42,521 nt of DNA from a virus (taxonomy: Duplodnaviria > Heunggongvirae > Uroviricota > Caudoviricetes): IMG/VR virus record IMGVR_UViG_2706794696_000015; one strand, written 5' to 3'. Both the position numbers and the translations under genes were made by a program. The notes under the pieces are model-generated. The model saw only the letters and a list, made by a program, of their open reading frames with translations. It made no database searches and had not been told where the DNA came from. Below, piece by piece: positions 39,001-42,521 of the stretch (position 1 is its first letter; each line of letters opens with the position of its first letter).

Positions 39001-39493
39001 GGACGGCATTAAATCGCATACCCACAGCGCCAGCGCATCCAGTACGGATTTGGGGACGAAAACCACATCGTCGTTTGATTACGGCACTAAATCCACGAAT
39101 AACACTGGTGCGCATACCCATAGTTTAAGTGGCAGCACGAATGCAGCTGGTAATCACAGCCATAGAGATGGCCGTCGATTTAACCCCAGTGTTTTTAAAG
39201 ATACTTATCAATATGGTTATACAAGCTCAGGTCAAAATACCTGGGGTGTACAAGGCTCAGTAGGTATGTCTACGGGGTGGTTAGCGAATACCAGTATAGA
39301 TGGTAATCATAGCCATTCACTGTCCGGCACAGCAGCATCTGCAGGTGCACACGCGCATACTGTCGGTATTGGTGCTCATACGCACTCCGTTGCGATTGGT
39401 TCACATGGACATACCATCACCGTTAACGCTGCGGGTAACGCGGAAAACACCGTCAAAAACATCGCATTTAACTATATTGTGAGGCTTGCATAA
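36095..39493 (+). CDS. stf: Side tail fibre protein Stf, mosaic with an extra internal domain
   Basis: Lambda Stf-like N-terminus ([26 protein letters not shown]), Ala/Ser-rich repeats, AT-richer inserted domain, lambda-type His-rich C-terminus. Confidence 0.9.
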
Positions 39494-40077
39494 TGGCATT
39501 CAGAATGAGTGAACAACCACGGACCATAAAAATTTATAATCTGCTGACCGGAACTAATGAATTTATTGGTGAAGGTGACGCATATATTCCGCCTCATACA
39601 GGTCTGCCAGCAAACAGTACCTATATTGCACCGCCAGATATTCCGGCTGGCTTTGTGGCTGTTTTCAACAGTGATGAGGCATCGTGGCATCTCGTTGAAG
39701 ACCATCGGGGTAAAACGGTTTATGACGTAGCGTCAGGGGACGCGTTATTTATTTCTGAACTCGGTCCGTTACCGGAAAATGTTACCTGGTTATCCCCGGA
39801 AGGGGAGTTTCAGAAGTGGAACGGCACAGCCTGGGTGAAGGATACGGAAGCAGAAAAACTGTTCCGGATCCGGGAGGCGGAAGAAACAAAAAACAGCCTG
39901 ATGCAGGTAGCCAGTGAGCATATAGCGCCACTTCAGGATGCTGTAGATCTGGAGATCGCAACGGAGGAAGAAAACTCGTTGCTGGAAGCCTGGAAGAAGT
40001 ATCGGGTGTTGCTGAACCGTGTTGATACATCAACTGCACCTGATATTGAGTGGCCTGCGGTCCCTGTTATGGAGTAA
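39493..40077 (+). CDS. tfa: Tail fibre assembly protein Tfa
   Basis: 194 aa, lambda Tfa-like; TAATG overlap with stf. Confidence 0.9.
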
Positions 40078-40091
40078 TCGTTTTGTGATAT

Positions 40092-40125
40092 GCCGCAGCA
40101 ACTTGTCATGGCAGGATACTGCGGC
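40092..40125. terminator. Hairpin between convergent tfa and RT genes
   Basis: GCCGCAG - 20 nt loop - CTGCGGC followed by TGATTTGTGAATTT; the loop contains GGCAGGAT. Confidence 0.35.
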
Positions 40126-40189
40126 TGATTTGTGAATTTAAATAGTGTGTTTATTGCTTTATATATAAAGGATTTAATGGATTACATAT

Positions 40190-41560
40190 CTATGATATCC
40201 CTGAAATGTCCTCTTCAAGCTCTTTTACTGATTTCGCAATTTTAAATTTAAATTTTCTCTCTATTTCACTATTGCTAAGTTTTTTTTCATTCTCTTTCCC
40301 TATCCACATAGAAACAATTTCTCGTTTCTGAGATATATGTAGATTGTCAAAGTTAGGTATGTATTTAAAAGTCTCCGCTCTACCCCTGCGGAGTTCATAG
40401 AAAGTTTTAATCAAAGACTTTGGTTTTATTTCTGATGAAAGGCCGAATCGGCGGATAAGATTATTGATCGTATGATTAACAGCTCGAAGTTGAGCTGTTG
40501 ACGTTATTTGTGAGAAGTACGATACCCATCCCAATCGTTTACCTTCAAACACACATCCCGTAATTCTAAGATTTAGTTTCCACTGACAATATGCAACAGC
40601 TCGTTCTTTATCGCGCTTATTTTTAGCTTGTAGTAGAGCGTGTCTATATGCAGTAAAAATTTTTGCTAAGGATGACTCAAATCTAAGAATGCTCTCATGT
40701 TTTATCAATAATTCTCGATTTTTTATGTGGTAGCCCAAAAAGTTGAAACTTTCATCCAAGCTGCCTACTTTGGATTTTGAGTTCTCTTCATTTAATGGAT
40801 GTGGGTTTAAATTTAATGATTGAAGCTTATCAATGATATGAGAAGCTATTTTTGTTGCTTGATATTTTGGTGTTAAAATAAGAATGTCATCAACGTATCG
40901 CATGTACCATATGTCATGCATTTTATTGATTTCATCATCGAAATTAGATAGTGATATTTCAGCTAAAATGTTTGATATCGCTAATCCCTGAGGTACTCCT
41001 CTGGTATTATTAGGGATACCTTTGCTTCCTGTGGTTCCACTTACAGTAGGCACGATTAATGATGATGTTATTAACTGTCTAATTTCTTTTTTTCTAATTT
41101 TATTTTTTATTGCATTAATTATCAATTTATGTTCAATTGAAGGATAGAAACTTTTAAGATCTATTTTTGCATATTCAGCATATAGACTGTTGTTTAATGC
41201 TTCTTTCAATGAGTCAATTACTGTATGTGGTAGTTTTAATCTGGACTTAGGATATATTTCCGTAAGGCATTCACAGAGAGCTCTAAGAGTAATTCTGTCC
41301 CTAGCAGTTGGTATGGAAATCTGTCTGGGTGTAGAGTTAGCGCCTTTAGATATTAATTTTTCTTTATATGCTGTAAATTTGTAATTGCCAGAATTAACCT
41401 TTTCAAAAATGAAAGTGATCTCATTTTTTATTGTCAAATCAAGTTTTGATGGGCGAATCCGATCTATGCCAATCGCTCCTGATTCTTTGATTTTTTCAGA
41501 GTATACTTTTAGAAGATTTTTTTTCGAGAATGACTTTTTAAAAATTCTGCTTGCAGTCAT
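40190..41560 (-). CDS. Reverse transcriptase (retron / UG-Abi / DRT-like), with ~200 aa C-terminal extension
   Basis: RT motifs: catalytic Asp in KIDLKSFYPSI, RGVPQGLAISNILAEISL, YVDDILIL, FLGY; AT-rich gene; ATG 41560 (TTG 41566 alternative) overlaps upstream gene. Confidence 0.8.
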   Translation of the reverse strand: MTASRIFKKSFSKKNLLKVYSEKIKESGAIGIDRIRPSKLDLTIKNEITFIFEKVNSGNYKFTAYKEKLISKGANSTPRQISIPTARDRITLRALCECLTEIYPKSRLKLPHTVIDSLKEALNNSLYAEYAKIDLKSFYPSIEHKLIINAIKNKIRKKEIRQLITSSLIVPTVSGTTGSKGIPNNTRGVPQGLAISNILAEISLSNFDDEINKMHDIWYMRYVDDILILTPKYQATKIASHIIDKLQSLNLNPHPLNEENSKSKVGSLDESFNFLGYHIKNRELLIKHESILRFESSLAKIFTAYRHALLQAKNKRDKERAVAYCQWKLNLRITGCVFEGKRLGWVSYFSQITSTAQLRAVNHTINNLIRRFGLSSEIKPKSLIKTFYELRRGRAETFKYIPNFDNLHISQKREIVSMWIGKENEKKLSNSEIERKFKFKIAKSVKELEEDISGIS

Positions 41561-42089
41561 AGTCAATCCAAAGATATATTAATGGGAGTATATAAAGTGC
41601 GGCAGTAATAAATATTCGAAGTAATATCCATAAAATAACAATTATTTTTTCTTTTTGTGTGGGGATCCTCGTCTTAAGTCCAACTTGAGTTACCCTTGAA
41701 ATTTTATCATCTATGTCACGGTGATTCTCAACCTCATTGAGCAAATTAAAATATTTTTCTTTCTGTTCAAGAGATAACTGTTGACTGGTGGTAATGTCAA
41801 AATAGAGTCGCTGTAGTGCAATATAATTCCTTCTCATGGCTATTGCTCGACCACGAAAATCTAGGTTAGATACGATCAGAGAAATACCCAGTAGAGCCAC
41901 TGAAAGTATCGCCGCAACGACATCTGTATTATCTCCTAGAACCTTTGGAAATCGCAACGTTACAATTGAAAGTACCGCACTCAATATAGCATACCAAACG
42001 AGGATAAATTGAGAGTGTTTTTCAAGCCATTCTAGTCGATGGTGCGCTTGGATACGTGCTTTATATGTAAACCAAATATTGTCATGCAT
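41538..42089 (-). CDS. Small multi-pass membrane protein coupled to the RT (candidate effector)
   Basis: 183 aa; hydrophobic segments FILVWYAILSAVLSIVTL, VVAAILSVALLGISLIVSNL and IIVILWILLRIFITAALYILPLIYLWI; AAGGA RBS; 3' end overlaps the RT start by 23 nt. Confidence 0.6.
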   Translation of the reverse strand: MHDNIWFTYKARIQAHHRLEWLEKHSQFILVWYAILSAVLSIVTLRFPKVLGDNTDVVAAILSVALLGISLIVSNLDFRGRAIAMRRNYIALQRLYFDITTSQQLSLEQKEKYFNLLNEVENHRDIDDKISRVTQVGLKTRIPTQKEKIIVILWILLRIFITAALYILPLIYLWIDYDCKQNF

Positions 42090-42099
42090 AAAAGATCCT

Positions 42100-42245
42100 T
42101 TTTAAAAGCGGAAGGGGCAGGATATATTGGAACCGTTGAACATCCTGCCCGGCAGGATCAGTGAGCATAAGCTCAACAGTAAAATATTACTGTTCATTAT
42201 CAGAGCCGCCCTTGCATGCGCAAGAGGAAAAACCTGCCCCATCCC
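42100..42245 (-). ncRNA. Structured 5' leader or candidate ncRNA of the membrane-protein/RT operon
   Basis: ~145 nt between predicted start site and RBS, bracketed by GGGGCAGG / CCTGCCCC inverted repeats, with several internal hairpins and a 17 bp palindrome. Confidence 0.3.
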
Positions 42246-42250
42246 TTTGA

Positions 42251-42280
42251 ATTATTACAATTTAATGATCTTAAAGTCAA
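42251..42280 (-). promoter_or_regulatory. Sigma70-like promoter for the membrane-protein/RT operon
   Basis: Minus strand reads TTGACT - 17 nt - TAATAAT. Confidence 0.45.
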
Positions 42281-42311
42281 TACAAGTGAATGGTGTCCAG
42301 AGATGATGAAC

Positions 42312-42521
42312 TTAATGAACAAACCACTCGTCAGCAGACTCCCAGGTATCTTTCAGAGTCTCCTGAACAAAAGTTTTAGCTGAATCTTTATCAGCGGTGC
42401 GCGTAACAGAAAGGCCATCGTTGCTGGTGGCTTTTACGATCACTTCTACATCGTCATAACGTTTACTGATGCGTCGGGTTAATTCTTCCTTTAACGCATC
42501 CACAGCACCGGTTGGCATTTT
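42312..42521 (-). CDS. DinI-like protein, N-terminus beyond the window
   Basis: C-terminal ...[14 protein letters not shown]...[16 protein letters not shown] resembles DinI (…ETWESADDWF…). Confidence 0.7.

What the first reader, a model, noticed from the sequence alone, without database searches (positions are those of the whole stretch)
42100..42285. Near-consensus promoter and ~145-nt structured leader bracketed by inverted repeats upstream of the RT operon
On the - strand, TTGACT - 17 nt - TAATAAT lies ~150 nt upstream of the membrane-protein start. The predicted transcript would begin close to GGGGCAGG (+ strand CCTGCCCC, 42233-42240) and end, just before the RBS, with its complement CCUGCCCC (+ strand GGGGCAGG, 42114-42121). 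Between them are short hairpins (CUUGC-GCAU-GCAAG; ACAGUA-AUAUUU-UACUGU; GAGC-UUAU-GCUC) and a perfect 17-bp DNA palindrome ATCCTGCC-C-GGCAGGAT (42142-42158). The last hairpin (GGGCAGGAU / AUCCUGCCC) is followed by UUCCGCUUUU, so it could also act as an attenuator. Flanking inverted repeats around a structured RNA just upstream of an RT operon is the layout of retron msr-msd, though this element is shorter than most retron ncRNAs.
Basis: partly seen in the sequence, partly recalled or inferred. Interest (0 to 1): 0.7.

Follow-up and report, generated by a model that had tools for sequence, protein, structure and literature searches.

The report
DRT10 reverse-transcriptase template RNA gene
The structured region is real and is the small non-coding RNA of a DRT10 (UG17) anti-phage system, whose reverse transcriptase copies a short template in it over and over, telomerase-style; this RNA family was already described in 2025-2026.

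Summary
The downstream operon encodes a SLATT_5 membrane protein and a UG17-class reverse transcriptase (RT), which together define a DRT10 defence system. It is not a retron.

[quoted passage not shown] Across 26 sequences, 97.7% of pair cells form pairs and 17 of 34 pairs show compensatory changes.

The 17-bp palindrome is stem-loop SL5, the template boundary element. The loop after it reads CAAC-GGUUC-CAAU. This is the published A-B-A' repeat-addition template of Eco3DRT10 (CAAU-GAUUC-CAAU) with two substitutions.

A 98%-identical E. coli allele carries the exact Eco3 template. Of 188 E. coli genomes with the locus, 154 have the window's template and 34 the Eco3 one. The predicted product is protein-primed, single-stranded tandem repeats of GAACCGTTG.

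Verdict: a correct observation of an RT-template RNA, but the retron label is wrong and the element is already known. The only modestly new points are the natural template allele and its possible 8-nt alternative register.

The parts
42275..42280 (-). -35 hexamer TTGACT of the ncRNA promoter
   Evidence: 10 of 12 match, the best promoter-like site in 39900-42521. TTGACT is at the same distance in the Xenorhabdus and Photorhabdus loci.
42251..42259 (-). Extended -10 element TG-T-AATAAT
   Evidence: A TAnnnT hexamer (TAGAAT, TAAGAT, TATAAT), often preceded by TG, lies 12-15 nt upstream of the basal-stem core in nearly all homologous loci.
42108..42244 (-). DRT10 (UG17) non-coding RNA, 137 nt. 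Ends are inferred by transferring the Eco3DRT10 numbering.
   Evidence: Fold z = -4.58. Covariation. The covariance model gives a single hit in the whole 42.5-kb window, 42098-42251 (-), 129 bits. End inference: setting C42138 to nt 107 puts nt 1 at G42244, 7 nt after the -10, and nt 137 at C42108, just before UUUU (PMC12632851 numbering).
42233..42244 (-). 5' arm of the basal stem SL1/P1 (GGAUGGGGCAGG)
   Evidence: I1. 9 of 11 consensus pairs show compensatory changes (helix 1).
42110..42121 (-). 3' arm of the basal stem SL1/P1 (CCUGCCCCUUCC)
   Evidence: I1.
42206..42228 (-). SL2 (UCCUCUUGC-GCAU-GCAAGGGCGG). It holds two invariant U-G wobble pairs that fix the strand.
   Evidence: helix 2: 99% paired, 2 pairs with compensatory change. 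U26-G49 and U29-G45 are invariant; on the other strand they would be A-C mismatches.
42195..42205 (-). Nearly invariant single-stranded junction CUCUGAUAAUG
   Evidence: C49, T50, A52, A54 and A55 are invariant across 26 sequences. Its function was not tested; a protein contact is presumed.
42175..42194 (-). SL3 (AACAGUAA-UAUU-UUACUGUU)
   Evidence: I5. helix 3: 100% paired, 3 pairs with compensatory change.
42163..42174 (-). SL4 (GAGC-UUAU-GCUC)
   Evidence: helix 4: 95% paired, 2 pairs with compensatory change.
42142..42158 (-). SL5, the 17-nt palindrome AUCCUGCC-G-GGCAGGAU. Inferred to be the template boundary element.
   Evidence: I4. helix 5: 100% paired. In Eco3DRT10, scrambling SL5 is the only stem-loop mutation that abolishes repeat synthesis completely (PMC12632851).
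42122..42141 (-). Single-stranded template loop GUUCAACGGUUCCAAUAUAU
   Evidence: Unpaired in the consensus structure. An A-B-A' repeat of at least 4 nt occurs in 24 of 26 homologous loops, against 26% of shuffled loops (0 of 500 shuffles reach it).
42130..42138 (-). Predicted template A-B = CAAC-GGUUC, giving the cDNA repeat GAACCGTTG
   Evidence: It is positionally homologous to the Eco3DRT10 template CAAU-GAUUC, which occurs verbatim in the 98%-identical E. coli CE10 allele. The Eco3 template was defined experimentally in PMC12632851.
42126..42129 (-). Alignment segment A' = CAAU
   Evidence: Identical to the Eco3DRT10 A'. (U)CAA...(U)CAA at loop positions 3-4 is kept in 19 of the 26 training loops by the repeat finder (22 of 26 if a CAA...CAA repeat noted by eye in L024/L025 and a one-mismatch repeat in L009 are added). 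Read by eye from the alignments, it is also present in all 5 independent loci.
42104..42107 (-). U-run immediately after the inferred 3' end of the RNA. Possibly weak termination or a processing site.
   Evidence: Read from the sequence. Not called as a terminator, and the U-run is not conserved in homologues.
41538..42089 (-). SLATT_5 two-transmembrane effector gene (183 aa). Its RBS AGGA lies at 42096-42099.
   Evidence: Pfam SLATT_5 1.3e-28. PADLOC RTasSLATT 1.5e-56. NCBIfam SLATT_5 136 bits against a cut-off of 60.
40190..41560 (-). UG17/DRT10 reverse transcriptase (456 aa from the ATG). It overlaps the SLATT gene by 23 nt.
   Evidence: PADLOC RT_UG17 1.1e-158 over the full length. YVDD (222-225) and the C-terminal S456 are invariant in 25 homologues. 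Annotated as a 456-aa CDS in RefSeq.

Best explanation
The region is the promoter and gene of the DRT10 (UG17) non-coding RNA. This RNA is the third component of a tripartite anti-phage system, together with the SLATT membrane effector and the UG17 reverse transcriptase (RT) encoded just downstream.

Proposed mechanism:
1. A sigma-70 promoter (TTGACT / TGTAATAAT) starts transcription at about G42244.
2. The roughly 137-nt RNA folds into a basal stem (SL1, made of the two 'flanking inverted repeats') carrying four hairpins (SL2-SL5), and it binds the RT.
3. The single-stranded loop between SL5 (the palindrome) and the 3' arm of SL1 holds a short template, CAAC-GGUUC, followed by an alignment segment, CAAU.
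4. The RT primes from the hydroxyl of its own C-terminal Ser456 and copies the template up to the boundary set by SL5.
5. The nascent cDNA 3' end (…GTTG) unpairs and re-anneals to CAAU (three Watson-Crick pairs plus one dG-rU wobble), and the cycle repeats.
6. The product is long single-stranded tandem repeats of GAACCGTTG, made in a telomerase-like way.
7. Changes in the level or state of this cDNA during phage infection are thought to activate the SLATT protein and abort the infection.

Shown here: the identity of the proteins, the RNA structure with its covariation, the conserved promoter position, the A-B-A' pattern, and near-identity to an allele carrying the published Eco3DRT10 template.

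Taken from the literature on that allele: RT binding, protein priming, tandem-repeat synthesis and defence.

Inferred: the exact RNA ends, the 9-nt register in this allele, and the link between cDNA and SLATT activation.
For: Proteins:
- RT is UG17 (E = 1e-158) and the neighbour is an RT-associated SLATT.
- YVDD and the terminal Ser456 are invariant.

RNA structure:
- Fold z = -4.58.
- In 26 distinct loci from six genera plus a metagenome-assembled genome (MAG), 97.7% of pair cells form pairs, against 48-57% in slid controls.
- 17 of 34 pairs show compensatory changes, against 4-9 in slid controls, and 0 of 500 shuffles reach the observed values.
- Invariant U-G wobble pairs fix the minus strand as the RNA strand.

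Covariance model:
- Five loci not used for training (Klebsiella, Pantoea, Pectobacterium, Proteus, Aeromonas) score 92-127 bits at the same position.

Template:
- A-B-A' repeats of at least 4 nt occur in 24 of 26 loops, against 26% of shuffled loops.
- The E. coli CE10 allele, 98% identical, carries CAAUGAUUCCAAU, the experimentally defined Eco3DRT10 template plus alignment segment (PMC12632851).
- Transferring the Eco3 numbering puts the 5' end 7 nt after the -10 and the 3' end just before UUUU.

A second laboratory reports the same tripartite logic for another UG17 system (bioRxiv 10.64898/2026.04.29.721553).
Against: - No expression, RT-binding or cDNA data exist for this exact allele.
- I could not retrieve the accession or sequence of Eco3DRT10. 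The stored supplement is truncated. Its identity with the CE10-type allele is therefore inferred from the 13-nt template match, the RT length with S456, and the consistent numbering.
- In the window's allele, A and A' differ at their fourth base. A second repeat, GUUC-AACG-GUUC with a period of 8, overlaps the template, so the product register is not certain.
- Only 18 nt separate the inferred RNA 3' end from the SLATT ATG, and no other promoter-like site lies between them. How the mRNA and the discrete RNA are both produced is unresolved.
- 26 of the 30 hits are training sequences and match by construction.
Confidence: 0.9

Rival explanations
1. It is the same DRT10 RNA, but in this allele the RT uses the overlapping 8-nt register GUUC-AACG-GUUC. 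It would read 3 nt further, to the foot of SL5, and make CGTTGAAC repeats or a mixture of 8- and 9-nt repeats.
For: - GUUC...GUUC is the longest exact A-A' repeat in the window's loop: 4 nt, against 3 exact nt for CAA...CAA.
- The same 8-nt repeat exists in the Xenorhabdus, Bordetella and Photorhabdus loci.
- Eco1DRT10 shows that competing annealing sites make repeat addition imprecise (PMC12632851).
Against: - The Eco3 allele also has an overlapping 8-nt repeat (UUC-AAUGA-UUC), yet it makes precise 9-nt repeats. This indicates that the boundary lies at C107, 3 nt from SL5.
- Across the family the conserved repeat is (U)CAA...(U)CAA. GUU(C)...GUU(C) is sporadic.
- With the Eco3 boundary, the cDNA 3' end GTTG cannot pair with GUUC.
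Confidence: 0.15
2. It is a retron msr-msd. The inverted repeats would be a1/a2, and the RT would prime from the 2'-OH of a G in the RNA to make branched multicopy single-stranded DNA.
For: Inverted repeats flank a structured RNA on the same strand as, and upstream of, an RT operon.
Against: - The RT is UG17, not the retron clade. The retron St85 model gives 58 bits against a cut-off of 235, and UG17 gives 527 bits.
- No retron RNA family matched in Rfam at E up to 10.
- There is no long msd hairpin.
- The RNA sits upstream of the effector gene rather than next to the RT.
- The near-identical characterised system is protein-primed. Its products are insensitive to RNase but dependent on proteinase K, and they are tandem repeats of a 9-nt template (PMC12632851).
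Confidence: 0.02
3. It is purely a cis-acting 5' leader or transcription attenuator that gates expression of the toxic SLATT-RT operon, with no role as an RT template.
For: - The RNA ends 18 nt before the SLATT ATG and is followed by CUUCCGCUUUU.
- No other promoter-like site lies in between, so the operon mRNA probably reads through this element.
- An alternative 9-bp hairpin exists in this allele (I2).
Against: - The alternative hairpin is not conserved: 51% paired, equal to controls.
- The U-run is not conserved, and no terminator was called on this strand.
- An attenuator model does not explain the conserved A-B-A' repeat in an unpaired loop.
- Published work shows RT binding by RIP-seq, in vitro templating by synthetic RNA, and loss of repeats after template mutations (PMC12632851). 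It also shows trans-complementation by the RNA alone in a related system (10.64898/2026.04.29.721553).
- A secondary role as a leaky terminator, on top of the template role, remains possible (my estimate is about 0.25).
Confidence: 0.03

Closest known systems
Eco3DRT10 ncRNA (Tang et al. 2025, bioRxiv 10.1101/2025.10.16.682844; PMC12632851)
   Same: - Same position upstream of SLATT-RT and same 137-nt span.
- Same architecture: a basal stem plus four hairpins, with SL5 directly before the template loop.
- Same alignment segment, CAAU.
- Same 456-aa RT with YVDD and a terminal Ser456.
- An E. coli allele 98% identical over this region carries the exact Eco3 template.
   Different: - There are two substitutions inside the 9-nt template: CAAC-GGUUC instead of CAAU-GAUUC.
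- The predicted repeat is therefore GAACCGTTG rather than GAATCATTG, and A and A' match at only 3 of 4 bases (the fourth is a G-U wobble on realignment).
- In complete E. coli genomes the window's template allele is the commoner one, 154 against 34.
UG17-A ncRNA of Escherichia sp. E3659 (Sanchez-Nieto et al. 2026, bioRxiv 10.64898/2026.04.29.721553)
   Same: - The same tripartite organisation: ncRNA, SLATT, RT.
- A basal stem essential for RNA stability.
- A template loop with two short repeats (ACU...ACU) that drive iterative repeat synthesis.
   Different: - A different sequence family: a 143-nt RNA with six stem-loops, a 7-nt repeat AGTAATA, and a shorter RT (about 445 aa).
- My covariance model does not detect distant UG17 types (no hits in L027-L044). 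This agrees with their statement that the models work only within subtypes.
DRT9 (UG28) ncRNA
   Same: According to PMC12632851, it is a structurally similar scaffold with a template loop, and synthesis is protein-primed.
   Different: DRT9 uses a conserved poly-U template to make poly-dA homopolymers. Here the loop is a mixed-sequence A-B-A' template.
Telomerase RNA
   Same: It works in the same way: a short template plus an alignment segment, a 5' structured template-boundary element, and repeat-addition processivity (PMC12632851).
   Different: - It is a bacterial defence RNA.
- Synthesis is primed from a protein rather than from a chromosome end.
- No sequence homology between the RNAs was tested or is claimed.
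Retron msr-msd ncRNA
   Same: It is a structured RNA closed by inverted repeats, encoded with an RT and reverse-transcribed by it as part of an anti-phage system.
   Different: - A different RT clade.
- No msd hairpin.
- No branch-G priming, according to the literature on the close allele.
- The product is open-ended tandem repeats rather than a unit-length msDNA.

Membership tests
DRT10 / UG17 defence system | The reverse transcriptase belongs to the UG17 group of class 2 UG/Abi RTs | tested here: met
   PADLOC RT_UG17 gives E = 1.1e-158 and 527 bits, covering model positions 1-429 of 429. The next best model, Drt3a, gives 130 bits.
DRT10 / UG17 defence system | An adjacent SLATT_5 two-transmembrane gene, tightly coupled to the RT gene | tested here: met
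   Pfam and NCBIfam SLATT_5 both score above their cut-offs, and PADLOC RTasSLATT gives 1.5e-56. The two genes overlap by 23 nt.
DRT10 / UG17 defence system | A structured ncRNA upstream of SLATT on the same strand, with a basal stem carrying four stem-loops | tested here: met
   The RNAalifold consensus has 5 helices. 97.7% of pair cells form pairs and 17 of 34 pairs are compensatory. The covariance model hits independent loci.
DRT10 / UG17 defence system | An A-B-A' repeat in the single-stranded loop directly downstream of the last stem-loop (SL5) | tested here: met
   The loop reads CAAC-GGUUC-CAAU at 42138-42126. The family-wide enrichment is 24 of 26 loops against 26% of shuffled loops. 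The position is homologous to the Eco3 template.
DRT10 / UG17 defence system | Catalytic YVDD and a conserved C-terminal priming residue (Ser456 in Eco3-like RTs) | tested here: met
   Y222, V223, D224, D225 and S456 are invariant in 25 aligned homologues that are 59-83% identical to the window RT.
DRT10 / UG17 defence system | [quoted passage not shown] | not testable with these tools
   This is known only from experiments on Eco1-3DRT10 and on E3659 (PMC12632851; 10.64898/2026.04.29.721553).
Retron | A retron-clade reverse transcriptase | tested here: not met
   NCBIfam retron_St85_RT gives 58.4 bits against a cut-off of 235. The best PADLOC model is UG17, and no retron RT model is among the top hits.
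Retron | An msr-msd RNA: a1/a2 inverted repeats enclosing msr hairpins and a long msd stem-loop | tested here: inconclusive
   Flanking inverted repeats are present (I1). However, there is no long msd-like hairpin, and no retron RNA family matched in Rfam at E up to 10. Retron ncRNAs are diverse, so the Rfam negative carries little weight.
Retron | 2'-5' branch priming from a conserved G, giving a unit-length msDNA | not testable with these tools
   The literature on the near-identical allele reports Ser-primed, RNase-insensitive products of kilobase length.
Intrinsic terminator / attenuator | A local G+C-rich hairpin followed directly by a U-run, conserved among homologues | tested here: not met
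   No terminator was called on the minus strand at this site. The proposed hairpin pairs in 51% of cells, equal to controls. The U-run is not conserved.

The most novel reading that the evidence does not exclude
The two E. coli template alleles (CAAC-GGUUC, 154 genomes; CAAU-GAUUC, 34 genomes) may reflect selection on the sequence or register of the repeat DNA itself. The two alleles sit in otherwise 97-98% identical loci, and two of the three substitutions inside the 137-nt RNA fall in the 9-nt template.

Possible drivers would be escape from a phage counter-measure or tuning of how the cDNA is sensed. The majority allele, with its imperfect A/A' match and its overlapping 8-nt repeat, might also make a mixed or different product from the one characterised.
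Probability: 0.2. Interest if true: 0.45.

Novelty: already known. Interest (0 to 1): 0.25.

Why it matters
DRT10 is biologically striking: a bacterial RT-RNA pair that adds tandem repeats by a telomerase-like cycle and has been proposed to be related to the ancestor of telomerase. For this window, the practical value is in annotation. RefSeq annotates nothing under this RNA in any of the 188 E. coli genomes that carry it. The RT is labelled only 'reverse transcriptase domain-containing protein', and several homologues are labelled 'retron-type'. The analysis also shows that the template characterised in the laboratory is the minority allele in E. coli. It gives a concrete prediction, GAACCGTTG repeats, for the majority allele.

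Tried and rejected
- Rfam scan of 39500-42521 at E up to 10. Nothing relevant matched in the finding region; the only hit there was a meaningless MEG8 match at 15 bits.
- Looking up the Eco3DRT10 sequence or accession in the supplement of PMC12632851. The stored spreadsheet is truncated before the Eco3-like rows. Searches for the template, for 'Eco3' and for the WP accessions of the E. coli alleles returned nothing, so the equation with the CE10-type allele stays an inference.
It is not conserved.
- A second alternative pairing, SL5 3' arm GGGAU with the downstream AAUCC. It pairs in 83% of cells, but slid controls reach 58-78% in this pyrimidine-rich stretch, with only 2 compensatory pairs. 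I treated this as not established.
- Folding the plus strand. It folds about as well, as expected for Watson-Crick helices. It was rejected as the RNA strand because of the invariant U-G pairs, the promoter and the gene orientation.
- Distant UG17 loci (L027-L044, RT 31-34% identical). They have their own structured upstream regions, visible by eye, but are not detected by my model. I did not pursue them.

Full report
**The observation**

The minus strand of 42100-42285 lies between a DinI-like gene (42312-42518) and an operon of two overlapping genes.
- The promoter TTGACT / TG-T-AATAAT is the best sigma-70-like site in the neighbourhood, at 10 of 12.
- The flanking inverted repeat extends to 12 nt: 42233-42244 against 42110-42121.
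- The 17-nt palindrome lies at 42142-42158.
- The AACAGUAA/UUACUGUU hairpin and the alternative pairing GGGCAGGAU/AUCCUGCCC are both present.
- The predicted RNA folds into one long-range basal stem enclosing four hairpins. Its energy is 4.4-4.6 standard deviations better than dinucleotide shuffles.

**What the operon is**

The first gene (41538-42089, 183 aa) encodes a SLATT_5 two-transmembrane protein. Pfam gives 1.3e-28, NCBIfam scores above its cut-off, and the PADLOC 'RT-associated SLATT' model gives 1.5e-56.

The second gene (40190-41560, 456 aa from the ATG) encodes a reverse transcriptase (RT) that matches the PADLOC UG17 model end to end (E = 1.1e-158). The retron St85 model gives only 58 bits against a cut-off of 235.

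UG17 plus SLATT is the DRT10 defence system. Two papers describe it:
- Tang et al. 2025 (PMC12632851).
- Sanchez-Nieto et al. 2026 (bioRxiv 10.64898/2026.04.29.721553).

Both report a third, essential component: a structured non-coding RNA encoded just upstream of the SLATT gene. [quoted passage not shown]

**Conservation and covariation**

RT homologues run from 99% down to about 59% identity. YVDD and the very last residue, Ser456, are invariant. Ser456 is the priming residue identified in Eco3DRT10.

A scan of one genome per species returned 44 loci. In all 27 loci whose RT is at least 50% identical, the 150 nt upstream of SLATT align with the window's leader. These loci come from Xenorhabdus, Photorhabdus, Buttiauxella, Pseudomonas/Stutzerimonas, Stenotrophomonas, Bordetella and a metagenome-assembled genome (MAG).

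On the alignment of 26 distinct sequences (25 from these loci plus the window):
- RNAalifold recovers the same five helices. 17 of 34 pairs show compensatory double changes.
- 97.7% of pair cells form standard pairs, against 48-57% when the partners are slid by 1-3 columns.
- 17 pairs carry compensatory changes, against 4-9 in the slid controls. No shuffle out of 500 reaches the observed paired fraction or covariation score.
- Two invariant U-G wobbles in SL2 would be A-C mismatches on the other strand, so the RNA is the minus strand.

A covariance model built from this alignment finds one hit per locus, always abutting SLATT. It finds a single hit in the whole 42.5-kb window: 42098-42251, minus strand, 129 bits. 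Most of those hits are training sequences.

I therefore fetched five further loci through other RT homologues: Klebsiella, Pantoea, Pectobacterium, Proteus and Aeromonas. Each gave one hit of 92-127 bits. Four of the hits end 2-18 nt before the SLATT start, and the fifth (L054) runs 2 nt into it.

A -10-like hexamer (TAGAAT, TAAGAT or TATAAT, often with an upstream TG) lies 12-15 nt before the basal-stem core in nearly all loci. The promoter position is therefore conserved as well.

**The template**

In Eco3DRT10 the loop after SL5 contains the template A-B = CAAU-GAUUC (nt 107-115), followed by A' = CAAU (nt 116-119). The RT makes GAATCATTG repeats. It copies A-B up to the boundary set by SL5 and then re-anneals the cDNA 3' end to A'.

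The window has CAAC-GGUUC-CAAU at the homologous place (42138-42126), directly after GUU and the palindrome hairpin.

Alignment of E. coli alleles shows that strains CE10 and CFIAFB20190172, 98% identical over this region, carry GUUCAAUGAUUCCAAU. This is the Eco3 template and alignment segment, letter for letter. The two alleles differ at three positions inside the RNA, and two of these are in the 9-nt template.

Transferring the published numbering (C of A = nt 107) gives consistent ends:
- nt 1 falls on G42244, 7 nt downstream of the -10.
- nt 137 falls on C42108, immediately before UUUU.

These ends are an inference, but both make sense.

Queries of 57 nt, centred on the two substitutions so that only the matching allele can seed a megablast hit, split the 188 carrier genomes into 154 with the window's template and 34 with the Eco3 template.

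Family-wide:
- An A-B-A' repeat with A of at least 4 nt occurs in 24 of 26 loops, against 26% of shuffled loops (0 of 500 shuffles reach it).
- The recurring pattern is (U)CAA...(U)CAA starting at loop position 3-4, with a variable B and a period of 9-11.
- Read by eye from the alignments, the five independent loci show the same pattern.

**Mechanism proposed for this allele**

Protein-primed reverse transcription starts from Ser456 on CAAC-GGUUC and stops 3 nt from SL5. The cDNA end 5'-GTTG-3' then realigns on CAAU. That gives three Watson-Crick pairs plus a dG-rU wobble at the position where Eco3 tolerates substitution. The product is (GAACCGTTG)n.

The loop also contains GUUC-AACG-GUUC, with a period of 8. 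I rate this register less likely. The Eco3 allele has an analogous overlapping repeat (UUC-AAUGA-UUC), yet it makes precise 9-nt repeats.

**What is not supported**

- Retron. The RT clade is wrong, there is no msd-like hairpin, there is no Rfam match, and the literature on the close allele shows protein priming.
- Attenuator. It exists here because the E. coli-type SL5 stem duplicates the basal-stem sequence: GGCAGGAT occurs twice (D2).
- Terminator. The U-run is not conserved, and no terminator was called.

Only 18 nt separate the RNA's inferred 3' end from the SLATT start codon, and I see no other promoter-like site between them. The operon mRNA therefore probably reads through the RNA gene. 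How the discrete RNA is released, whether by weak termination or by processing, remains open. Neither paper resolves it.

**Context**

The window is 100% identical to E. coli O25b:H4. The order there is dusA, tyrosine integrase, DinI-like gene, the RNA, SLATT, RT, and then convergent lambdoid tail-fibre genes. The cassette therefore sits at the integrase end of a prophage.

In CE10 and MS6193 the same cassette lies next to prfC. All 190 copies are chromosomal. Nothing is annotated under the RNA in any record.

**Verdict**

The feature is real and functional, and it was correctly spotted. It is the already described DRT10 (UG17) template RNA, in the allele that is commonest in E. coli. The retron label and the attenuator idea should be dropped. 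The remaining open points are the exact repeat made by this allele and whether the natural template polymorphism has any functional meaning.

Noticed in passing
window 39836-40034 (+): There is a full-length match to Rfam IS009 (RF02111): 224.6 bits against a gathering score of 117, E = 2.9e-56. It lies inside the tail fibre assembly gene (39493-40077, +), which converges on the RT gene.
   Followed up: no
window 42126-42138 (-), compared with L046/L050 (E. coli CE10) and L048: The DRT10 template is naturally polymorphic. 154 complete E. coli genomes carry CAACGGUUC and 34 carry CAAUGAUUC, the template studied experimentally. Two of the three differences inside the 137-nt RNA fall in the 9-nt template. 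At the loci's overall divergence of about 2.8%, about 0.25 would be expected there.
   Followed up: partly
window 42116-42123 and 42151-42158 (+ strand coordinates): GGCAGGAT occurs twice as a direct repeat. As a result the SL5 stem copies the basal-stem sequence and allows an alternative 9-bp pairing that encloses the template. This is specific to the E. coli, Xenorhabdus and Klebsiella-type alleles. Other genera have a short AUCCC/GGGAU SL5 stem.
   Followed up: partly
alignment A2 columns 114-118 with 136-140 (window about 42142-42146 with 42122-42126): The 3' arm of SL5 (GGGAU) can pair with a downstream AAUCC in many Pseudomonas-type sequences: 83% of cells pair and 2 pairs are compensatory. 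Slid controls reach 58-78%, so a conserved alternative conformation around the template is neither established nor excluded.
   Followed up: partly
window 42195-42205 (-): The single-stranded junction CUCUGAUAAUG between SL2 and SL3 is almost invariant from E. coli to Bordetella (CU.AUAA core). It is more conserved than any helix, which suggests a sequence-specific contact with the RT.
   Followed up: no
window 40476-40501 (+): A terminator-like hairpin with an 11-bp stem followed by a T-rich tail lies on the plus strand inside the 3' part of the RT coding region. It is antisense to the RT gene and about 400 nt downstream of the convergent tail fibre assembly gene.
   Followed up: no
L045 2738-2957 (E. 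coli MS6193) and H14 (NZ_CP025851.1): In some carrier genomes the neighbouring DinI-like gene is frameshifted. In one genome an IS1 element splits the SLATT gene. Not every copy of the system is therefore intact.
   Followed up: no
L027-L043, about 100-250 nt upstream of the SLATT-like genes: Distant UG17 loci (Alphaproteobacteria and a Flavobacteriaceae MAG; RT 31-37% identical) have their own G+C-rich closing stems, for example GUGCGGG...CCCGCAC. These resemble the published Eco1-like RNAs. The Eco3-type covariance model does not detect them.
   Followed up: no
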